Origin: Candidatus Azambacteria bacterium RIFCSPHIGHO2_02_FULL_52_12
GTDB taxonomy: Bacteria > Patescibacteriota > Minisyncoccia > GWC2-36-17 > WO2-46-25
DNA: 36,235 nt
Direction: 5' to 3'
Assembly: GCA_001775835.1 (NCBI GenBank)
Contig: MEYP01000006.1
Span: forward strand, 16,486-52,720
Shown piece after piece: positions 3,811-36,235 of the stretch. The notes below the pieces were generated by a model, which worked only from the letters and a program-made list of their open reading frames with translations, had not been told where the DNA came from and did no database searches. Position 1 is the stretch's first letter; the number at the start of each line of letters is the position of its first letter. Both the position numbers and the translations under genes were made by a program.

Positions 3811-3845
3811 TTCTATTTTCTATTTTCTAAATTCTAGCTTCTATG
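3811..3845 (-). repeat. Heptad array (TAGAAnn) x5 in the sufB-sufD spacer
   Basis: The plus strand reads ttctatt ttctatt ttctaaa ttctagc ttctatg. On the mRNA strand this follows the sufB stop directly: TAG-CATAGAA GCTAGAA TTTAGAA AATAGAA AATAGAA. Confidence 0.9.
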
Positions 3846-9333: not shown

Positions 9334-9463
9334 TTGACCCCTCACTTGGAAAGCGCTGCGCAAAGCGCAAACATGTTTTTTTAAAAAAAGAAGTATTGTT
9401 TTGCAAAACGGACTATGAAAGCATCAGCGTTGGTTGATTGCGCCTTCCAAGCGAGGGGTTGAC
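9334..9463 (+). repeat. 130-bp TTGA-flanked inverted-repeat element, copy A
   Basis: The structure is TTGA-CCCCTCACTTGGAAAG...CTTCCAAGCGAGGGG-TTGAC. The arms are 14 of 15 complementary. The right flank doubles as a -35 box. Confidence 0.85.
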
Positions 9464-9800: not shown

Positions 9801-10955
9801 ATGGAAGCGGCCGCAAAGAAAATTTTTGTAGCTATGTCGGGAGGCGTGGATAGCTCTGTTACTGCCGCTCTGCTTAAAGAGCAGGGGCGCGACGTAACAG
9901 GCATATTCATGAAGAACTGGTCTGACAGTGCGTTTTTGAAAGACACGACTATGTGCCCGTGGGTGGCGGACCAGGAAGATGCGCGCAAGGCGGCCGCGGT
10001 CATCGGCATTCCTTTGTATACGTTCGATTTTGAAAAAGAATATCGGGAAAAAGTCGTCGCGTATATGATAGCGGGATACAAGGCGGGGATTACGCCCAAC
10101 CCGGACGTGATGTGCAACAAGGAGATAAAGTTTGGACTGTTCTTACAAAAAGCGCTCGAGCTTGGCGCCGATTTTGTGGCGACCGGCCATTACGTCCGCC
10201 TTCGGCGGAATGACGAATTTCGAATTTCGAATTTCGAAATTGATTCAAAACTTAAAATTCAAAATTCAAAATTAGGTTGCCAGTTGTTACAAGCAAAAGA
10301 TCGAAATAAAGACCAATCTTATTTTTTGTGGACTCTTACGCAAGAACAGTTGAAATATTGCGTTTTTCCCATTGGAGAATATACCAAGCCGGAGGTGCGC
10401 GAGATGGCGCGGAAATACGGTTTGCATAACGCCCAGAAGAAAGACAGCCAGGGAGTGTGCTTCGTGGGCGACTTGGATGTGTTTGAATTTTTAAAGAGTC
10501 AAATCCCGACGCACAAGGGAAAGATCATGACCGCAAGCGGCAGGGAGGTCGGCGAGCACGAGGGTGTGGAATTTTACACTATCGGCCAGCGCCATGGCAT
10601 CGGTTCGCCTGGTGGCGGAACGGCGTATTATGTGGTTGGCAAGGATGCAAAGAAGAATATCTTGTATGTCGGCGAGGGCGCGGATGACAAAGAGCTCTAC
10701 GGCATGGCGCTTGAAGCCAGGGCAGCGCATTGGATTTCCGGCAACGAGCCAGAGTTGCCGTTACGCTGTGAAGCCAGAATACGGTATAGACAATCATTAC
10801 AGAAGTGTATTGTGAATTCTCTGTTTCATGTTTCACGTTTCATGTTTCACGTTGAGTTCGACGAGCCCCAGCGCGCTATCACGCCTGGCCAGTCTGTTGT
10901 TTTTTATGACGGGGATACGGTCCTTGGCGGTGCCGTAATCGTGCAAAAAGTTTGA
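9801..10955 (+). CDS. mnmA: tRNA 2-thiouridine(34) synthase MnmA
   Basis: The 384-aa ORF has the PP-loop (VAMSGGVDSSV), NPDVMCN, ATGHY, KDQSYFLW, DSQGVCF and the C-terminal AITPGQSVVFYDG. It contains two heptad-repeat tracts, listed separately. Confidence 0.93.
   Translation: MEAAAKKIFVAMSGGVDSSVTAALLKEQGRDVTGIFMKNWSDSAFLKDTTMCPWVADQEDARKAAAVIGIPLYTFDFEKEYREKVVAYMIAGYKAGITPNPDVMCNKEIKFGLFLQKALELGADFVATGHYVRLRRNDEFRISNFEIDSKLKIQNSKLGCQLLQAKDRNKDQSYFLWTLTQEQLKYCVFPIGEYTKPEVREMARKYGLHNAQKKDSQGVCFVGDLDVFEFLKSQIPTHKGKIMTASGREVGEHEGVEFYTIGQRHGIGSPGGGTAYYVVGKDAKKNILYVGEGADDKELYGMALEARAAHWISGNEPELPLRCEARIRYRQSLQKCIVNSLFHVSRFMFHVEFDEPQRAITPGQSVVFYDGDTVLGGAVIVQKV
10214..10276 (+). repeat. Nine 7-bp repeat units (63 bp, 21 codons) inside mnmA
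   Basis: The units read cgaattt x3, cgaaatt, gattcaa, aacttaa, aattcaa x2, aattagg. The tract is AT-rich compared with its flanks and encodes DEFRISNFEIDSKLKIQNSKL. Confidence 0.9.
10823..10853 (+). repeat. GTTTCAY heptad x4 inside mnmA
   Basis: The sequence gtttcat gtttcac gtttcat gtttcac gtt encodes FHVSRFMFHV. Confidence 0.9.
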
Positions 10956-11082
10956 CCCCATACTCAACAAGGATTGCCCCCTTGGCGCCAAGAGGTTTTT
11001 TTACTGTCAACAAGAAATAGCATAACAAGAATGTGCAAGACCAATTCATGAGGTAATTATCCTTGTTGAGTATGGGGTTGAC
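10952..11082 (+). repeat. 131-bp TTGA-flanked inverted-repeat element, copy C
   Basis: The structure is TTGA-CCCCATACTCAACAAGGAT...ATCCTTGTTGAGTATGGGG-TTGAC, a perfect 19-bp inverted repeat. The left TTGA contains the mnmA TGA stop. Internally there is a hairpin plus T7 (cccttggcgccaagagg-ttttttt) and arm-like copies at 11007-11016 and 11024-11032. Confidence 0.9.
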
Positions 11083-13432: not shown

Positions 13433-13651
13433 ATGAAACAGGAATTTACAGCGGTCTATAAAAAGAGCGGAAAGTGGTACGTGGGGTGGGTGGAAGAGGT
13501 TTCCGGCGTGAATACGCAGGGGAAAACGCTCAAGGAAACAAAGGAAAATCTCCGCGAGGCGCTTTCTTTGGTGCTTGAGACGAACCGGATGTTGAGCAGA
13601 ATAGACGGGCGTCGGGCGATACGCGAACCGATCAGCGTTTTTGCGCGATGA
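13433..13651 (+). CDS. hicB: HicB-like antitoxin (72 aa)
   Basis: The start is the internal ATG of track ORF 13307..13651. MKQEFTAVYKKSGKWYVGWVEEVSGVNTQGKTLKETKENLREALSL fits the HicB/UPF0150 N-terminal fold pattern. An ATGA overlap couples it to hicA. Confidence 0.7.
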   Translation: MKQEFTAVYKKSGKWYVGWVEEVSGVNTQGKTLKETKENLREALSLVLETNRMLSRIDGRRAIREPISVFAR

Positions 13652-13842
13652 AGCGGGGAGATCTGATTTCGCATCTTGTACGCGAAGGATGCGTATTCAT
13701 CAGGGAGGGCGCTCGCCATAGCGTCTTTTTTAATCCGTTTACCAGGCGGACCTCCACGGTACCGCGGCATACGGAAGTAAATGACTTTCTTGCGCGGAAA
13801 ATTTGCCGCGATTTGGGCGTTGATAATGTGCGGAAAAAGTAG
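13648..13842 (+). CDS. hicA: HicA-family mRNA interferase toxin (64 aa)
   Basis: MKRGDLISHLVREGCVFIREGARHSVFFNP...TVPRHTEVNDFLARKICRDLGV matches the HicA pattern (G-x-H ... VP-x-H). Confidence 0.8.
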   Translation: MKRGDLISHLVREGCVFIREGARHSVFFNPFTRRTSTVPRHTEVNDFLARKICRDLGVDNVRKK

Positions 13843-15096: not shown

Positions 15097-16814
15097 AAAA
15101 AATACTCTACGTACATCCCGACGAAACCATCGCCTATCTCATTGACCGGATGGAAAATACCGATTCGGATACGCTTTTTATCGTCGCGGACGCCAACGCC
15201 GCGCTCTTTATGGATTCGGTGAACCTGAAATTGCTCAAGCGCGAAGCGGACGGATTCCGCAAGCAATGCGTCATCGTTTCCCAAGCCCCGGCTGTTCTCG
15301 CCATGGCGCGCGAGGCCGGGTTTGACACATCGTCGGAAGATATCGCTCCTGAAGAGTCCGGGTACCCGCCCGTACCGAATGAGTACGTTCGGGCGGGCGG
15401 CGTGCAGCATGAAGTACCCAGTTCGACGGATTCGGCGGGCTCACTGCAGGCGGAATCGGAAGAAGAAGTGCCGGTGCATGTCCGGTCCAGCGCTCCCGAG
15501 AGCGGTCTTTCCATGGCTTCCGGGCGTTTTGTTTCGCATGACGCGCCACCCTCCGGCACAGAGGCCGATGAAGAGATGCATTATGAGAACAGCCCCGAAG
15601 AATCCGAAGAAGCGGGAGCGGGTGGTGCGCGCGACTATCGTGACGCCCGAAAAGGGGCGCCCGGCATGCCGCTCAACTGGAAATTCCTTGGCGCGACGCT
15701 CGCGGGGGTGCTTGTCGTCGCTGTCGCCGGTTTCTATCTTTTTTCCCCTAAGCTGTCCGTTTCCATCGTTCCCAAGAAAGAAACGCTGAATTTTGATTTT
15801 CAGGTGGTTGGCGACCTTGCGTTGTCGAGCGTTAATCTGACGAAAGCGCGCATCCCCGGGCAGGTCGTCACCATCGCGCAAGAGCAATCCGATTCGTTTC
15901 CCGCTACGGGAAAACAAGACAAAGAAACCAAGGCGGAAGGGGAGATCGTTATTTACAACGCGTTCGGCGCGGGCATCCAGACGCTGGTGAAAAATACCCG
16001 TTTCAAAGCGAAAGACGGCAAGTTGTTCCGCCTGGTGAGCGCGGTGACGGTTCCCGGCGCGAAGATGGAAGGAGGGAAAGTCGCCACGCCGGGCACGGTG
16101 AACGCGCGCGTTGTGGCAGACCAGCCGGGCGCGGCGTACAATATCGATCCGACTGATTTTTCAATACCCGGATTTCAGGATACTCCCAAGTTCCTCGGTT
16201 TTTACGGGAAATCAACCAAGCCCATGAGCGGAGGCGGTTCAAGCAACGCGCGGTTCGCCACTCGGGAAGATCTGGACAAAGCGAAGGCGGCGCTTTCCGA
16301 TGCTCTTGCCAAAAGCGCCCAAAGCCATGTCGCGTCGCAGATTCCCAAAGGGCTCAAGGCCGTTTCCGAGGCATTCGCACAGGAGGCGCCCCAGTTGACT
16401 CCCGGTTCGGTTGACGCGGACGGGATGTTCAAAGCGACGCTCAAAACGACCTATACCATTTTCGCTTTTTCCGAGAATGATATCATCGCGCTGATAGACC
16501 ATACGGTATCGGGAAGGATCTCGGAACGGCGCAAGGCCATCCCGGAGACGCGCGTTATTTCTTATGTCGATGAAGTCGTCAGTCAGGACAAAAAGTCGTT
16601 CTCGTTTACGGCAAAAATAAGCGAGCTGGTGCTTGGCATCATAGACCACAACGACATGCGGCTCCTGTTGGCGGGCAAAAACGAGTCGGAGATCAGGCAG
16701 ATACTGGGCGCCAATGAATCCATTGAGGGAGCGGAAATAACGTTTTGGCCGTTGTGGGCTTCGGCGGCTCCGGCAAACCCCGACATGATAAAGGTTTTTG
16801 TGGATGAGTCTTGA
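15093..16814 (+). CDS. Single-pass membrane protein with acidic linker and large extracytoplasmic domain, hypothetical
   Basis: The 573-aa ORF is coupled by an ATGA overlap to the FtsA-like gene. It has an N-terminal cytoplasmic domain, a low-complexity E/S/P-rich linker, one TM helix (LGATLAGVLVVAVAGFYLF) and about 350 aa outside. Confidence 0.75.
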   Translation: MKKILYVHPDETIAYLIDRMENTDSDTLFIVADANAALFMDSVNLKLLKREADGFRKQCVIVSQAPAVLAMAREAGFDTSSEDIAPEESGYPPVPNEYVRAGGVQHEVPSSTDSAGSLQAESEEEVPVHVRSSAPESGLSMASGRFVSHDAPPSGTEADEEMHYENSPEESEEAGAGGARDYRDARKGAPGMPLNWKFLGATLAGVLVVAVAGFYLFSPKLSVSIVPKKETLNFDFQVVGDLALSSVNLTKARIPGQVVTIAQEQSDSFPATGKQDKETKAEGEIVIYNAFGAGIQTLVKNTRFKAKDGKLFRLVSAVTVPGAKMEGGKVATPGTVNARVVADQPGAAYNIDPTDFSIPGFQDTPKFLGFYGKSTKPMSGGGSSNARFATREDLDKAKAALSDALAKSAQSHVASQIPKGLKAVSEAFAQEAPQLTPGSVDADGMFKATLKTTYTIFAFSENDIIALIDHTVSGRISERRKAIPETRVISYVDEVVSQDKKSFSFTAKISELVLGIIDHNDMRLLLAGKNESEIRQILGANESIEGAEITFWPLWASAAPANPDMIKVFVDES

Positions 16815-16940
16815 CCCCTCACTTGGAAAGGATATTTGATGGGAATATGCCGTAATACACTTAACGTTTTTGACTAACGTATTTTGGGAACTTGGAAGGC
16901 ATGTCGCTTTGCGACAATCCTTTCCAAGTGAGGGGTTGAC
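16811..16940 (+). repeat. 130-bp TTGA-flanked inverted-repeat element, copy B
   Basis: The structure is TTGA-CCCCTCACTTGGAAAGGAT...ATCCTTTCCAAGTGAGGGG-TTGAC, a perfect 19-bp inverted repeat. The left TTGA contains the TGA stop of the upstream gene. An internal third arm-like copy, ACTTGGAAGG, lies at 16890-16899. Confidence 0.9.
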
Positions 16941-17279: not shown

Positions 17280-17393
17280 ATGAAAATCAGAGCATCCGTA
17301 AAAAAAATATGCGCGAAGTGCAAATCTGTGCGAAGGTTCGGAAGGATCTATGTGCTCTGCGCGAATCCAAAACATAAACAAAGACAGAAATAG
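17280..17393 (+). CDS. rpmJ: 50S ribosomal protein L36
   Basis: This ORF is too short for the ORF track. Hand translation gives [37 protein letters not shown] (37 aa). The stop TAG is the first unit of the heptad array. Confidence 0.9.
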
Positions 17394-17473
17394 AAACTAG
17401 AAATTAGAAAGTAGAATCTAGAACTAAGGAGTCCAAACTTCTATTTTCTAGATTCTAGCTTCTAGATTCCACA
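17391..17473 (+). repeat. Heptad palindrome: (TAGAAnn)x5, a spacer containing AAGGAG, then (TTCTAnn)x4-5
   Basis: The sequence is tagaaac tagaaat tagaaag tagaatc tagaact | aaggagtccaaac | ttctatt ttctaga ttctagc ttctaga ttccaca. For example, tagaatctagaa pairs perfectly with ttctagattcta. Confidence 0.9.
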
Positions 17474-17476
17474 ACT

Positions 17477-17863
17477 ATGCCCAGAATCGCCGGTATAAAC
17501 ATACCCGATAACAAACGAATAGAAATAGCGCTTGCCTATATTTACGGCATCGGCCCGACATTGGGGACGCACATCGTCACCCAGGTTGGCGTCGACCCGA
17601 ACAAGCGGGCCAACAAGCTGACCGCCGAAGAGCTCAACCGCATCAAAGAGTACATCGAAAAGCATTACAAGATAGAAGGGGATCTGAAGCGCGAGATTAT
17701 GCTGAACGTCAAACGGCTGAAAGACATCAAGGCGTATCGTGGCGTTCGGCACATGCGCGGGCTTCCCGTGCGGGGCCAGCGGACCAAAACCAATTCACGA
17801 ACGCGCCGTGGCAACACGAGAAAGACGGCGGGATCGGGAAGGAGATCGGTTGATAAGAAATAA
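17477..17863 (+). CDS. rpsM: 30S ribosomal protein S13
   Basis: The 128-aa ORF begins MPRIAGINIPDNKRIEIALAYIYGIGP and contains YRGVRHMRGLPVRGQRTKTN. Confidence 0.95.
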   Translation: MPRIAGINIPDNKRIEIALAYIYGIGPTLGTHIVTQVGVDPNKRANKLTAEELNRIKEYIEKHYKIEGDLKREIMLNVKRLKDIKAYRGVRHMRGLPVRGQRTKTNSRTRRGNTRKTAGSGRRSVDKK

Positions 17864-17871
17864 GGGCTTTC

Positions 17872-17994
17872 GTCCCCATCAGAATGCTTTTGCTTTGAGC
17901 GTTCTGATGGGGACTGAAAACCTTACCGAAGCACATAACCAATAGTTATGTGCTCGGTGCTCAATGTGAAAGTAAAATTTACTTCGCAGTGAGC
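17872..17994 (+). other. Three tandem stem-loops in the 154-nt rpsM-rpsK spacer (candidate cis-regulatory RNA or processing site)
   Basis: HP1 spans 17872-17914, with a 13-bp perfect stem gtccccatcagaa / ttctgatggggac. HP2 spans 17926-17957, with stems of 9 and 4 bp. HP3 spans 17959-17994 and is imperfect. Confidence 0.6.
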
Positions 17995-18017
17995 TCGCAA
18001 ATTTTAATCACATTGGC

Positions 18018-18473
18018 ATGGGAAAGAAGAAAATAACAACGCAGAACGAAGCGCAGATGTTGAAAGAAACAGGAGCCCTTGAAACGGCGTCTAAGAAAGT
18101 CGCGGCCGCGCCCGCCTCAAGCAAACGTTTCATAAAAAGCGGCAAAGCATACGTGCAGGCGACCTACAACAATACCATCGTATCGTTGACGGATGATGCG
18201 GGCAACGTGCTTGGCTGGGCGTCCGCGGGTTCCATGGGATTTAAAGGAGCGAAAAAATCGACGCCGTTCGCCGCGTCCAAAGTCGTTGAAGCGGTGGTGG
18301 AAAAGGGAAAGAAGGCCGGCATGCAGGATGTCGCGGTTTATGTGAAAGGCATCGGTTCAGGCAGAGAATCGGCCGTCCGGTCCCTCGCTACCCATCTTAA
18401 TCTGTCCAGCATAACGGACGTGACCCCCATCCCGCATAACGGATGCCGGCCGCCGAAAGTCAGGAGAGTATAA
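18018..18473 (+). CDS. rpsK: 30S ribosomal protein S11 (N-terminally extended)
   Basis: The 151-aa ORF contains [18 protein letters not shown] and ends [20 protein letters not shown]. Confidence 0.93.
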
Positions 18474-18514
18474 CAGAAATAGAAACTAGAATTTAGAAAA
18501 TAGAAACTAGAATA
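18473..18514 (+). repeat. Heptad array (TAGAAnn)x5-6 filling the rpsK-rpsD spacer
   Basis: The sequence is acagaaa tagaaac tagaatt tagaaaa tagaaac tagaatATG. The last unit overlaps the rpsD start, and there is no SD. Confidence 0.9.
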
Positions 18515-34335: not shown

Positions 34336-36235
34336 ATGTATATCAAGTCGATTTCGCTCAGCAATTTCAAAAAATTCGACAAGCTCTCAGTGGCCTTTCC
34401 TTCGGATATCACCGTGGTGAAGGGCCCCAACGAACAGGGCAAATCAAGCCTGCTCGCGGCGCTTTTGGCGGGTCTTTTTTACGATCCGAAAAAAAGCAAC
34501 CAGCAGATCTCCTCGCTCAAATCGTGGCAGTCGGACAAGCTGTATGAGCTGGTCACCGGCATCGAACACAACGGCGAGGATATCGTGCTTTCGAAGAATT
34601 TCGAGACCAAGGAACTACTGTTGGAGAATAAGACGACGGGGAAAAAGCTCAATACGTTCGCCGCAATCGGCGATGAACTGTACACGATCGGCGCCCTGCG
34701 GTCGCTTGCTCTTTTTGAGAATACGGCGTGCGTGCGGCATGACGCGCTGGCACAGATGACTGAAGGCAAGAAAGAGATTTCACAGGCGTTGCAGGCGCTC
34801 ATGACTGCGTCGGGGGAAAACGTCAGCTCCGAGAAAATACTGAAAAAACTCGGCGACGGCATCGCGTCGCTTCAGCGCGGCACGAAACAGCAGGCGAAAA
34901 CGCCGGGCCTGTTGAAGCAGCTTGATGCCGACCTTGCTGTACTTGCGGGGAAAAAGACGGCCATAGCATCCGCGCTTGCGGACTTGGCGGCAAAAAGCGC
35001 CCATGCGGGAGAGCTTGCCGCGCTCGAACGCATCAGCAAACGCGAGTACGACGCGAAAGAGAGCCAATACCAGAAGAATATCGCGTATTTCAAGACGATG
35101 CAGGAGCTTGAGAAACTGCACGCGCAGGCGGACAAGGCGAACGCGGATTACAACGCGCTCATGGACATCGAGAACAAAAAAGGATATTTGAGCGTCCAAC
35201 AGGAAAAAATGAAAACGCTCAAAGCGATCGACTGGGAAAAGCTCTACGCGCAACGGGAGGCGTTGAGCGTCAAGAAAGAAAAGCAGAAAAATATTCTCGA
35301 GGAGGCGGAGCGCCTTGCCAAAGAAAAGAAGAAAACGAAAATACACGTGAAAATATCGCATGTTGCCGTGTCTGCTCTACTCGCCGCGCTCGGGTTTCTG
35401 GGGTTTGTGCGCGTTGAGCTGTTCGCGGCGTGGGTTTTGTCTGCCGTTGCGTTCGCGTACAGTTTCGTGTTTCGGCGCGGCATCGTCGTGCATACGGGCG
35501 TCCAGCTTGGCGCCGAGTCGGAAAGTCTGGCGCATGAGATCGCGGTGCTTGAAAAACAGCACACCAGCATCATGGATGAGAACGGCGTTTCCAGCATCGA
35601 AGAGCTGGTCCAGAAAGTGAAACGATACAACGAATTCGGGGTTGAACGGGAAAAATTGGAAAGCAAAGAAGAAGGGATATTGCGCGGCGGACGCCGAGAC
35701 AATTTCAAAAAAGAGCGCACCGAACTGCTCAAACGCATCGCCATCGAAGAAGCGAAGATCTCCGATGAAGAAAAAGCATCGCCGCCGTCTCCGTCGGCGC
35801 AGCGGCTCTTGGAAGTAGACCGGGAAAGGCACAAGCAGGAACTGGATAAGCTGGATAAGGAAATAGCGCACGTGAACGCTATCTTGCATTCGCAGTACAG
35901 CAGGGAGGATCTGGCGAAGACGGAGGAAGAGATGGAATACAAGCAAGCGCAGAAAGTGAACGCGGAGCGCAAGCTTGAAACGCTCCAGGTGCTTGCGGAC
36001 GCGCTCGCGGAAGCCCAGATAAGAACGATCGCGCAGTCGCGCTCCGTCATCGAACAATACATGCGGCGCTATCTGCCGGCCATCACCGACGGACGGTATA
36101 CGAACGTGAAGATCAAAGACGACCTGTCGTTCGAGGTGTGGTCCGACGAGAAGAAAGGGATGATCGTGCCGGAAGAAAATCTCTCCAAAGGGACGATCGA
36201 CCAGTTTTATCTCGTCGCGCGCTTTGCCGTGCTCG
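34336..36235 (+). CDS. sbcC: SbcC/Rad50-like SMC-type ATPase (3' end outside window), with a hydrophobic hairpin in the coiled coil
   Basis: This ORF is absent from the ORF track because it is open-ended. Hand translation from the ATG at 34336 gives MYIKSISLSNFKKFDKLSVAFPSDITVVKGPNEQGKSSLL (Walker A), long K/E/A-rich coiled coils and a signature-like LSKGTIDQFYLVARFAVL at the window end. The stretches I translated from 34336 to about 35520 contain no in-frame stop, and the window end reads in the same frame. The segment between them I inferred to be open only because the track lists no complete ORF in that frame. Confidence 0.8.
   Translation, partial: MYIKSISLSNFKKFDKLSVAFPSDITVVKGPNEQGKSSLLAALLAGLFYDPKKSNQQISSLKSWQSDKLYELVTGIEHNGEDIVLSKNFETKELLLENKTTGKKLNTFAAIGDELYTIGALRSLALFENTACVRHDALAQMTEGKKEISQALQALMTASGENVSSEKILKKLGDGIASLQRGTKQQAKTPGLLKQLDADLAVLAGKKTAIASALADLAAKSAHAGELAALERISKREYDAKESQYQKNIAYFKTMQELEKLHAQADKANADYNALMDIENKKGYLSVQQEKMKTLKAIDWEKLYAQREALSVKKEKQKNILEEAERLAKEKKKTKIHVKISHVAVSALLAALGFLGFVRVELFAAWVLSAVAFAYSFVFRRGIVVHTGVQLGAESESLAHEIAVLEKQHTSIMDENGVSSIEELVQKVKRYNEFGVEREKLESKEEGILRGGRRDNFKKERTELLKRIAIEEAKISDEEKASPPSPSAQRLLEVDRERHKQELDKLDKEIAHVNAILHSQYSREDLAKTEEEMEYKQAQKVNAERKLETLQVLADALAEAQIRTIAQSRSVIEQYMRRYLPAITDGRYTNVKIKDDLSFEVWSDEKKGMIVPEENLSKGTIDQFYLVARFAVL

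What the first reader, a model, noticed from the sequence alone, without database searches (positions are those of the whole stretch)
17391..17473. Heptad-periodic palindrome (TAGAAnn x5 / TTCTAnn x4-5) occupying the whole rpmJ-rpsM spacer
The array starts with the rpmJ TAG stop codon and ends 3 nt before the rpsM ATG. Five TAGAAnn units are followed by a 13-nt spacer containing AAGGAG. That AAGGAG is 45 nt from the ATG, too far to act as a normal SD. Then come four to five TTCTAnn units that can pair with the first array; for example, TAGAATCTAGAA pairs perfectly with TTCTAGATTCTA.

rpsM has no SD of its own. The same TAGAAnn x5 unit recurs at two other operon-internal junctions (18473-18514, and 3811-3845 on the other strand), always in the sense orientation of the mRNA.

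Strict 7-nt phasing of UAG/AGAA motifs suggests a periodic RNA-binding protein site or an SD-independent A-rich translation enhancer or coupling device. It does not look like random AT-rich spacer.
Basis: partly seen in the sequence, partly recalled or inferred. Interest (0 to 1): 0.7.

Follow-up and report, generated by a model that had tools for sequence, protein, structure and literature searches.

The report
Heptad-repeat hairpin filling an operon spacer
The rpmJ-rpsM gap of this tiny groundwater bacterium (Candidatus Azambacteria) is filled by a hairpin built from 7-base repeats; it belongs to a fast-changing family of such repeats that have colonised gene junctions in this lineage, a known but still unexplained kind of bacterial repeat rather than a specific protein-binding site.

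Summary
TAGAAnn x5, a 13-nt loop and TTCTAnn x4-5 fill the rpmJ-rpsM spacer exactly. They fold into a -29 kcal/mol hairpin. Period 7 is the only enriched period in the window.

- Close relatives carry different repeat units at the same junctions, or spacers of only 1-17 nt.
- The same genome has TTCTAnn (opposite-orientation) arrays before groES and groEL.
- Other heptad families sit between sbcD and sbcC, and as in-frame insertions inside mnmA.
- 34 of 40 genes here lack a Shine-Dalgarno sequence, so the missing one before rpsM is not special.

Copies share flanks and unit order across junctions, genomes and even CPR (Candidate Phyla Radiation) lineages. They therefore behave as a dispersed, rapidly turning-over repeat family.

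Heptanucleotide repeats next to start codons, overlapping the upstream stop, without a Shine-Dalgarno sequence and inside ribosomal-protein operons, were already described (TAACTGA repeats in Beggiatoaceae, MacGregor 2015). So was the general excess of heptamer repeats.

What looks new is the inverted-array hairpin that pairs the stop codon with the start-codon region, its occurrence in CPR bacteria, and a CPR-specific mixed-unit TAGAA variant. Its function remains inferred: most likely a tolerated insertion that preserves translational coupling.

The parts
17280..17393 (+). rpmJ (ribosomal protein L36, 37 aa). Its TAG stop (17391-17393) is the first repeat unit.
   Evidence: ORF and translation [37 protein letters not shown]. 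Orthologous ORFs in L216 and L217 are annotated PF00444 Ribosomal_L36.
17391..17425 (+). 5' arm: TAGAAnn x5.
17426..17438 (+). Apical loop AAGGAGTCCAAAC. The AAGGAG is partly paired with ACUUCU in the minimum-free-energy (MFE) fold.
17439..17473 (+). 3' arm: TTCTAnn x4 plus a degenerate TTCCACA. It contains the 20-mer TTCTATTTTCTAGATTCTAG, which is shared with CPR loci L017, L019 and L056.
17477..17863 (+). rpsM (S13). Its start is ATG in the context CUAUG, whose CUA pairs with the rpmJ UAG at the base of the hairpin.
18480..18513 (+). Single-arm TAGAAnn x5 array filling the rpsK-rpsD spacer and abutting the rpsD ATG (18514). It is predicted to be unstructured. It shares the 18-mer CAGAAATAGAAACTAGAA with the rpmJ end.
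3811..3843 (-). Single-arm TAGAAnn x5 array in the sufB-sufD spacer. It starts 2 nt after the stop codon and ends 19 nt before the ATG. It shares the 21-mer CTAGAATTTAGAAAATAGAAA with the rpsK-rpsD array.
34256..34336 (+). Second heptad palindrome, of another unit family (AGCTTTY ... RAAAGCT, with some 9-mers), filling the sbcD-sbcC spacer.
   Evidence: (-31.7 kcal/mol, z = -4.2).
10214..10273 (+). Heptad palindrome (CGAATTT x3.6 then AAATTCA-type x4.4) inside the mnmA ORF. It is an in-frame 15-aa insertion relative to the L014 ortholog.
10822..10853 (+). TGTTTCA (= CATGTTT) x4.6 array inside mnmA. It is a 4-aa insertion or replacement relative to L014.

Best explanation
What it is. The element is one copy of a dispersed, rapidly turning-over family of heptanucleotide tandem-repeat elements. 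Some copies are single arrays. Others, like this one, are two inverted arrays that form a long hairpin. The family has colonised the ancestrally tiny (1-9 nt) intercistronic spacers of one Azambacteria sub-lineage, and occasionally surface loops of ORFs.

How it arose (inferred). Arrays grow and shrink by slipped-strand replication errors in 7-nt steps. They are copied between junctions; shared flanks and shared unit order show copying, but the copying mechanism is unknown. The array at this site probably grew out of the native rpmJ 3' end, CAGAAATAG.

What it does (inferred). The element is transcribed within the infA-rpmJ-rpsM-rpsK-rpsD-rpoA mRNA. Its arms pair into an imperfect hairpin of roughly 30 bp. 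At the base of the hairpin the rpmJ UAG pairs with the CUA of CUAUG at the rpsM start. The 83-nt insertion is therefore looped out and stop and start remain side by side. A ribosome finishing rpmJ would melt the base of the hairpin and expose the SD-less rpsM start, so the tight translational coupling seen in relatives would be kept. On this view the element is tolerated, perhaps mildly useful. It is not a site for a TAGAA-specific factor.
For: Shown by tool results:
- Period 7 is uniquely enriched in the window. Period-7 arrays number 18 per 148 kb in Azambacteria loci against 6 per 756 kb in control ribosomal-protein loci.
- Orthologous junctions in relatives carry other units, or spacers of only 1-17 nt. 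Flanking coding DNA is still 79-82% identical with no indels.
- Dispersal. The L011 rpmJ-rpsM element matches the L215 rpsK-rpsD element at 86 of 114 alignment columns. Two L012 copies differ mainly by whole 7-nt units.
- The window arrays share an 18-mer flank and a 21-mer unit order. A 19-mer, TAGAATCTAGAAAATAGAA, recurs in 4 other CPR/DPANN loci and in none of the other GTDB hit loci. The adjacent-spacer pair (TC,AA) is seen 4 times in CPR loci and 0 times among 404 pairs in the others.
- There are in-frame insertions in mnmA.
- The hairpins are strong: z = -4.5, -4.2, and -2.5 to -10.4 for sister elements. UAG pairs with CUA(UG) at the hairpin base in the window rpmJ-rpsM, window sbcD-sbcC and L215 rpsK-rpsD elements.
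- 34 of 40 genes lack an SD.
- The arrays are identical in 10 assemblies, so they are not phase-variable.

From the literature: heptamers are the most abundant long simple sequence repeats (SSRs) in many bacteria, and polymerase slippage has been proposed as the cause (Mrazek 2007, as cited in PMC4679880 and PMC4692102). TAACTGA repeats have the same anatomy (PMC4679880).
Against: - TAGAA is invariant in about 30 units of this genome while only the two nn positions vary. Neutral decay of a slippage product would not predict this.
- All 6 TAGAA/TTCTA-family sites in about 58 kb lie within 0-19 nt of a start codon in transcribed DNA. None lies in the 7 convergent or divergent spacers. This hints at selection for position.
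- The L011 and L217 rpsM-rpsK elements have kept the same 72-nt length, about 75% identity and 2 compensatory pairs across deep divergence. This hints at purifying selection on at least some copies.
- No transposase, target-site duplication or other copying mechanism was identified.
- The coupling mechanism is pure inference. There are no expression data.
Confidence: 0.55

Rival explanations
1. Selected translation device. The arrays serve as AU-rich, structure-free, SD-independent ribosome landing sites (single arms). The palindromes are coupling hairpins that make rpsM, hydL and sbcC translation depend on translation of the upstream cistron. Periodicity is only the quickest mutational route to such sequence.
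For: - Every array in this genome ends 0-19 nt from a start codon in transcribed DNA, including the groES 5'UTR downstream of the CIRCE operator.
- Single arms are predicted to be unstructured.
- The organism is largely SD-less.
- Genes downstream of palindromes encode partners that need fixed stoichiometry (hydrogenase small and large subunits, SbcD and SbcC, ribosomal proteins).
- The L011 and L217 elements are conserved with compensatory pairs.
- MacGregor proposed a translational role for the analogous TAACTGA repeats (PMC4679880).
Against: - Close relatives express the same operon with 1-9 nt spacers and no arrays.
- Unit, orientation and arm number all vary.
- The same kind of array sits inside the mnmA ORF.
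- Across phyla, TAGAA arrays show no orientation bias and also lie in convergent and divergent spacers.
Confidence: 0.25
2. Binding array for a periodic nucleic-acid-binding protein. One option is an RNA-binding ring protein of the HutP or TRAP type reading UAG every 7 nt. The other is a DNA-binding protein reading tandem heptads, as ToxR and H-NS do on TTTTGAT repeats. Either would define a regulon of highly expressed operons.
For: - TAGAA is strictly invariant with free nn positions in about 30 units.
- UAG-N4 spacing equals the HutP site spacing (own knowledge).
- Identical 19-26-mers occur in several CPR/DPANN lineages but in no other phylum among the hits.
- The arrays precede ribosomal-protein, groESL, suf and hydrogenase genes.
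- Occurrence in both orientations is compatible with a double-stranded-DNA binder.
Against: - Both orientations occur in the mRNA sense. This argues against an RNA-specific reader.
- Orthologous junctions in 79-82%-identical relatives have unrelated units or none.
- Several unrelated unit families share the same architecture in one genome.
- There is no terminator or antiterminator context and no promoter match.
- No candidate protein appears among the precomputed Pfam annotations of about 58 kb.
- In viral contigs, same-composition cores form 6-unit heptad arrays as often as TAGAA does: ATGAA 81, AAGTA 87, GATAA 85, TAGAA 61.
Confidence: 0.12
3. Intercistronic RNA-processing or stability element. 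The ~30-bp hairpins are RNase III-type cleavage sites, or 3'-exonuclease barriers that segment the polycistronic mRNA, as REP hairpins and phage T7 intercistronic sites do.
For: Long, nearly perfect stems sit between cistrons. They are not followed by U-runs, so they are not terminators.
Against: Single-arm arrays of the same family cannot act this way. Relatives lack the hairpins. There are no transcript data.
Confidence: 0.08

Closest known systems
TAACTGA heptamer direct repeats of marine Beggiatoaceae, some cyanobacteria and Bacteroidetes (MacGregor 2015, PMC4679880)
   Same: - 2-6 tandem 7-nt units with 'split' variants.
- Mostly in forward orientation ending about 1 nt before a start codon.
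- Often overlapping the upstream stop codon, because the unit carries stops in all three frames.
- No SD.
- Internal to ribosomal-protein operons, including upstream of S4.
- Occasional in-ORF copies.
- Function unknown.
   Different: - The unit sequence differs (TAGAAnn with two free positions, plus several other unit families in the same genome).
- Many copies are inverted double arrays forming hairpins; only one inverted repeat was reported in the BOGUAY genome.
- Both orientations occur.
- The host is a CPR bacterium with a genome of about 1 Mb.
- Copies at orthologous junctions are replaced by other units in near relatives.
Long heptanucleotide simple sequence repeats (Mrazek 2007, as cited in PMC4679880 and PMC4692102); cyanobacterial STRR heptamers (Calothrix, cited in PMC4692102); GGGAATC and GGGGAYT repeats of Xanthomonas and Nostoc (Rehm 2015, PMC4692102)
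   Same: - Period 7 is selectively over-represented.
- Intergenic location.
- Length and sequence vary between close relatives at the same junction.
- Some occur as inverted pairs able to form stem-loops.
- Polymerase slippage has been proposed as the origin.
   Different: Those arrays are mostly perfect repeats, and G-rich ones form quadruplexes. Here the units are heterogeneous at two positions while the core is invariant. Arrays span exactly from stop to start, and copies share flanks and unit order like a dispersed element.
REP/REPIN elements and Rickettsia palindromic elements
   Same: Short palindromic, hairpin-forming repeats dispersed through a genome. They often lie between genes of one operon. 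Rickettsia palindromic elements also insert in frame into ORFs, as the mnmA copy does here.
   Different: No RAYT-type transposase or other mobilising gene was seen. The arms are built from tandem 7-nt units rather than a unique sequence. No target-site duplications were recognised.
HutP (UAG-N4 x3, two sets) and TRAP ((G/U)AG with 2-3 nt spacers, 9-11 copies) RNA-binding sites (own knowledge)
   Same: Periodic UAG triplets. The spacing equals that of HutP sites.
   Different: There is no antiterminator context and no cognate protein was found. The reverse orientation is also used. The motif is not conserved at orthologous sites.

Membership tests
Heptanucleotide long SSR / STRR-type tandem repeats | At least 3 head-to-tail copies of a 7-nt unit, more than chance allows | tested here: met
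   TRF gives 5.1-5.6 copies. There are 15 dimer hits against 0.07 expected. Only period 7 is enriched.
Heptanucleotide long SSR / STRR-type tandem repeats | Copy number changes in whole-unit (7-nt) steps between copies or strains | tested here: inconclusive
   Two L012 copies differ mainly by 7-nt units in the 3' arm. However, 10 assemblies of this population are identical, and no strain series at 95-99% identity was available.
Heptanucleotide long SSR / STRR-type tandem repeats | Units homogeneous (perfect repeats), as expected from ongoing slippage | tested here: not met
   The nn positions differ in almost every unit. In the non-CPR GTDB hits, adjacent units mostly share the same nn.
Start-codon-proximal heptamer direct repeats (TAACTGA type, MacGregor 2015) | Array ends within a few nt of a start codon, overlaps or abuts the upstream stop, and has no SD | tested here: met
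   The rpmJ TAG is unit 1. The rpsK-rpsD array abuts the ATG. No SD is present. The same holds in CPR loci L019, L025 and L113.
Start-codon-proximal heptamer direct repeats (TAACTGA type, MacGregor 2015) | Strong bias to one ('forward') orientation | tested here: not met
   There are 2 single TAGAA-sense arrays (sufB-sufD, rpsK-rpsD) against 2 single TTCTA-sense arrays (groES 5'UTR, groES-groEL) in this genome, and L217 has another TTCTA-sense array.
Start-codon-proximal heptamer direct repeats (TAACTGA type, MacGregor 2015) | Unit sequence TAACTGA | tested here: not met
   The units here are TAGAAnn, AGCTTTY, CGAATTT and CATGTTT.
REP/REPIN/MITE-like palindromic mobile elements | Dispersed copies with recognisably homologous sequence at non-orthologous sites | tested here: met
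   L011 rpmJ-rpsM matches L215 rpsK-rpsD. L012 infA-rpmJ matches L012 rpsM-rpsK. An 18-mer, a 21-mer and a 19-mer are shared between sites.
REP/REPIN/MITE-like palindromic mobile elements | Associated transposase (RAYT or IS) or target-site duplications | tested here: inconclusive
   None appears among the Pfam annotations of about 58 kb. No consistent duplication is seen at filled versus empty junctions.
HutP/TRAP-type periodic RNA-binding site | NAG triplets at fixed spacing within a leader that switches a terminator or antiterminator | tested here: not met
   UAG-N4 spacing is present, but there is no terminator-like structure or U-run. The site is intercistronic, and the reverse orientation is also used.
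HutP/TRAP-type periodic RNA-binding site | Cognate ring protein encoded in the genome | not testable with these tools
   Only about 58 kb of the 941-kb scaffold could be read.
Phase-variable contingency SSR | Length polymorphism within a population that switches expression | tested here: not met
   The arrays are identical in 10 assemblies from different samples. The units are imperfect.
Known Rfam RNA families (ribosomal-protein leaders and others) | Match at the gathering score | tested here: not met
   There are 0 matches in the whole window.

The most novel reading that the evidence does not exclude
CPR and DPANN organisms share a dedicated, horizontally spreading intercistronic element: the mixed-unit TAGAA palindrome, core TAGAATCTAGAAAATAGAA / TTCTATTTTCTAGATTCTA. 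It would be read by a conserved periodic nucleic-acid-binding factor, or by the SD-independent ribosome itself. By pairing the stop codon with the start-codon region, it would act as a programmable coupling or shunting module that replaces Shine-Dalgarno-based control in these minimal genomes.
Probability: 0.1. Interest if true: 0.75.

Novelty: new variant of a known kind. Interest (0 to 1): 0.45.

Why it matters
Heptamer repeats next to start codons have been noticed in Beggiatoaceae and cyanobacteria, with related arrays in Xanthomonas, but they remain unexplained. Finding them in a streamlined genome of about 1 Mb, inside essential operons (ribosomal proteins, groESL, suf, hydrogenase), is informative. 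These genomes have very little room for junk.

The hairpin architecture places stop and start side by side. Unit families are replaced at orthologous junctions within about 20% nucleotide divergence. Together these facts give a tractable comparative system.

Either such arrays are nearly neutral selfish or mutational filler, which limits how far 'streamlining' purges repeats. Or they are a cheap way to build SD-independent coupling elements. Both readings are testable with existing Rifle aquifer metatranscriptomes and simple reporter constructs.

Tried and rejected
- Phase variation: rejected. Ten assemblies are identical.
- Known RNA family: none. Rfam at gathering score gave 0 hits.
- Internal promoter built from TAGAAT or TAGATT as -10 boxes, or intrinsic terminator: no consensus promoter and no terminator in the arrays. 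The groES array lies downstream of the promoter and the CIRCE operator.
- AAGGAG in the loop as a functional SD: rejected. It is 45 nt from the ATG, partly paired, and absent from the loops of sister elements.
- TAGAA as a universally special motif: rejected. In viral contigs, 6-unit heptad arrays with same-composition cores are as common (TAGAA 61; ATGAA 81; AAGTA 87; GATAA 85). TAGAA arrays at period 6 (at least 119) and period 8 (58) are as common as at period 7.
- Universal sense bias: rejected. In GTDB loci, arrays between co-directional ORFs number 28 sense against 25 antisense, with 23 between convergent and 16 between divergent ORFs (ORF calling was crude).
- Metagenome scan for close relatives via RpsD peptides: this mostly returned distant bacteria, with only L134 at 69% identity. 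Those loci served as a control set only.
- One encoding-contig look-up failed because the ORF start was guessed wrongly.
- Target-site duplications at filled versus empty junctions: none convincing.

Full report
**Observation**

The window comes from a Candidatus Azambacteria (Patescibacteria/CPR) genome from Rifle aquifer groundwater: GCA_001774085.1, also present on a 941-kb ENA scaffold.

rpmJ (17280-17393) ends in a TAG that is the first of five TAGAAnn units (17391-17425). A 13-nt loop, AAGGAGTCCAAAC, follows. Then come four TTCTAnn units plus a degenerate TTCCACA (17439-17473), then ACT, then the rpsM ATG at 17477.

- TAGAANNTAGAA occurs 15 times in the window against 0.07 expected.
- Tandem Repeats Finder calls period-7 arrays at all the stated places.
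- Among periods 4-12, only 7 gives dense self-matches.
- The arrays are identical in ten independent assemblies, so they are neither artefacts nor phase-variable.

The two other TAGAAnn x5 arrays are real. One is at 18480-18512 (+), between rpsK and rpsD, abutting the ATG. The other is at 3811-3843 (-), between sufB and sufD. Both are predicted to be unstructured.

**What else is in the genome**

The window holds further period-7 arrays built from other units.
- An AGCTTTY / RAAAGCT palindrome fills the sbcD-sbcC spacer (34256-34336; -31.7 kcal/mol, z = -4.2).
- Two arrays lie inside the mnmA ORF. One is a CGAATTT / AAATTCA palindrome at 10214-10273. The other is (CATGTTT)n at 10822-10853. They are in-frame insertions of 15 and 4 residues relative to the L014 ortholog.

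Extending the same genome by about 22 kb added three more sites.
- A TAGAA-like / TTCTA palindrome lies between the hydrogenase small and large subunit genes.
- TTCTAnn x3 lies in the groES 5'UTR, downstream of a CIRCE operator.
- TTCTAnn x5 fills the groES-groEL spacer.

So the TAGAA family occurs in both orientations relative to the mRNA. All six TAGAA/TTCTA sites end 0-19 nt before a start codon in transcribed DNA. None was seen in the seven convergent or divergent spacers.

Only 6 of 40 genes have an SD-like 4-mer. The missing SD before rpsM is therefore the norm.

**Relatives**

At the same junctions:
- L011 (RpsD 91% identical; coding DNA 79-82% identical with no indels) carries palindromes made of GTTCATAAA (period 9), CTTGAAA and GAATTAG / ATTCCTA units.
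- L012 (84%) carries AATGATA / TATCATT and AGCTTTT / CTAAAAG palindromes.
- L215 (74%) carries AAATTCA and AAGTT-core palindromes.
- L013 and L214 have spacers of 3-17 nt. Their rpsM-rpsK spacer holds just two TAGAA units.
- L014 and L216 have spacers of 1-20 nt, with neither arrays nor an SD.

The ancestral state is therefore tight stop-start coupling. The arrays are lineage-specific fillers whose unit is not conserved.

Period-7 arrays number 18 per 148 kb in these Azambacteria loci. In control ribosomal-protein loci from other bacteria they number 6 per 756 kb.

**Evidence that copies are related by copying, not only by local slippage**

- The L011 rpmJ-rpsM element aligns with the L215 rpsK-rpsD element at 86 of 114 columns, yet the two sit at different junctions.
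- Two L012 copies (infA-rpmJ and rpsM-rpsK) are nearly identical and differ mainly by whole 7-nt units.
- In the window, the 18-mer CAGAAATAGAAACTAGAA occurs both at the rpmJ end, where CAGAAATAG is native coding sequence, and after the rpsK stop.
- The rpsK-rpsD and sufB-sufD arrays share a 21-mer with the same order of unit variants.

One element looks conserved. The L011 and L217 rpsM-rpsK spacers have the same 72-nt length, about 75% identity, and two compensatory plus three half-compensatory pairs.

**Wider distribution**

They span Bacteroidota, Cyanobacteria, Acidobacteriota, Proteobacteria and 15 CPR/DPANN loci.

Most arrays outside CPR are perfect repeats. With crude ORF calls, 114 of 127 arrays are intergenic and show no orientation bias: 28 sense and 25 antisense between co-directional ORFs, 23 between convergent ORFs and 16 between divergent ORFs.

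CPR arrays are more often of mixed units. The 19-mer TAGAATCTAGAAAATAGAA, whose complement lies in the window's 3' arm, recurs in four loci:
- Parcubacteria DG_74_3 (L017);
- Jorgensenbacteria (L019);
- Staskawiczbacteria (L056);
- a bin labelled Nanoarchaeota (L029).

It occurs in no other phylum among the hits.

L019 and L056 have the same palindromic polarity as the window element. L019, L025 and L113 repeat the 'stop codon is unit 1, start codon follows the last unit' layout. Their hairpins are strong.

In viral contigs, same-composition cores and periods 6 and 8 are as common as TAGAA at period 7. TAGAA is therefore not a universally special word.

**Mechanism**

*Shown:* the sequence anatomy, predicted hairpin stability, turnover between relatives, dispersal of copies, and the lack of an SD, a promoter match, a terminator or an Rfam match.

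*Inferred:*
- Arrays arise and resize by slipped-strand errors in 7-nt units. This idea comes from Mrazek 2007, as cited in PMC4679880 and PMC4692102.
- The rpmJ-rpsM array may have been seeded by the native CAGAAATAG end.
- Once transcribed, the arms pair so that the UAG of rpmJ pairs with the CUA of CUAUG at the rpsM start. The same base pairing is predicted for the window sbcD-sbcC element and the L215 rpsK-rpsD element.
- The insertion is thus looped out and stop and start stay adjacent. A terminating ribosome would open the base of the hairpin and expose the SD-less start, preserving the coupling seen in relatives.
- Single arms would act as unstructured AU-rich spacers.

A side observation fits this but rests on few, non-independent cases. 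The upstream stop is TAG at 6 of 13 palindromic junctions, against 1 of 16 short junctions.

**Comparison with what is known**

The closest description is MacGregor 2015 (PMC4679880). That paper reports TAACTGA heptamer direct repeats that:
- end about 1 nt before start codons;
- overlap upstream stops, because the unit carries stops in all frames;
- lack an SD;
- lie inside ribosomal-protein operons, including upstream of S4;
- occasionally lie inside ORFs.

Their function is unknown, and S1, Csp or CsrA binding was proposed.

Rehm 2015 (PMC4692102) documents intergenic heptamer arrays in Xanthomonas and Nostoc. Those include inverted pairs and vary between close relatives. A Nostoc preprint (10.1101/2022.06.06.494920) only speculates about regulation.

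The present case differs in four ways:
- the prevalence of inverted double arrays spanning exactly from stop to start;
- the coexistence of several unit families;
- the use of both orientations;
- the CPR host.

It fails the tests for a HutP/TRAP-type site, a contingency locus and any Rfam family.

**Verdict**

This is a real, non-random feature. It is a new variant of a known but unexplained kind of repeat. The idea of a sequence-independent coupling or leader role stays open. Interest is moderate.

Noticed in passing
window 16815-16830 with 16920-16935; 9338-9353 with 9447-9458; 10956-10974 with 11059-11077: Long-range inverted repeats about 100 nt apart (CCCCTCACTTGGAAAG ... CTTTCCAAGYGAGGGG, and CCCCATACTCAACAAGGAT ... 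ATCCTTGTTGAGTATGGGG). The 3' arm runs straight into a GGGGTTGAC box (-35-like) upstream of infA, a small ORF, and ORF 11160. This looks like a recurring hairpin-plus-promoter module.
   Followed up: partly
window 30157-30192 and 30796-30831: An exact 36-nt repeat, CGTACACAATTATTACTATCGGCTATTTTGTGTACG, that is itself palindromic at its ends. It lies upstream of a PaaX-like regulator gene (30219-30776) and of the next gene (30893). It is probably an operator pair.
   Followed up: no
window, start regions of about 40 genes (for example 17280, 19174, 13433, 30219): Only 6 of 40 genes have an SD-like 4-mer. Several ATGs have a TAnnnT box 5-8 nt upstream (TACAAT before rpmJ, TATAAT before rpoA, TATATT, TAAAAT). 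This suggests leaderless or near-leaderless transcripts, including inside the ribosomal-protein operon.
   Followed up: partly
window 17864-18017: The rpsM-rpsK spacer is 154 nt here, against 9-138 nt in relatives. It holds three ordinary, non-heptad hairpins and has no Rfam match.
   Followed up: partly
window 10214-10273 and 10822-10853 (mnmA ORF 9801-10955): Heptad arrays, one of them a palindrome, lie inside an essential tRNA-modification gene as in-frame insertions of 15 and 4 aa. This recalls Rickettsia palindromic elements.
   Followed up: yes
L219 about 15990-16046 and 16338-16386; L218 19556-19627 (same genome, just outside the window): A CIRCE operator upstream of groES is followed by TTCTAnn x3. 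The groES-groEL spacer is TTCTAnn x5. The spacer between the hydrogenase small and large subunit genes is a TAGAA-like / TTCTA palindrome.
   Followed up: yes
L017 7682-7707, L029 3152-3177, L056 2964-2989, L019 3704-3723: An identical 26-mer, TAGAATCTAGAAAATAGAATCTAGAA, occurs in L017, L029 and L056. Its 19-mer core also occurs in L019 and, as the complement, in the window's 3' arm. The four loci are from different CPR lineages and one bin labelled Nanoarchaeota. This fits horizontal spread or a shared constraint. The taxonomic binning of L029 was not verified.
   Followed up: partly
junctions in window, L011, L012, L215 compared with L013, L014, L214, L216, L217: The upstream stop codon is TAG at 6 of 13 palindrome-filled junctions but at only 1 of 16 short junctions; the rest are TAA. 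In three folds the UAG pairs with the CUA of CUAUG at the start codon.
   Followed up: partly
window 13433-13842: A HicB-like / HicA toxin-antitoxin pair sits between alaS and two large genes of unknown function, upstream of the ribosomal-protein operon.
   Followed up: no
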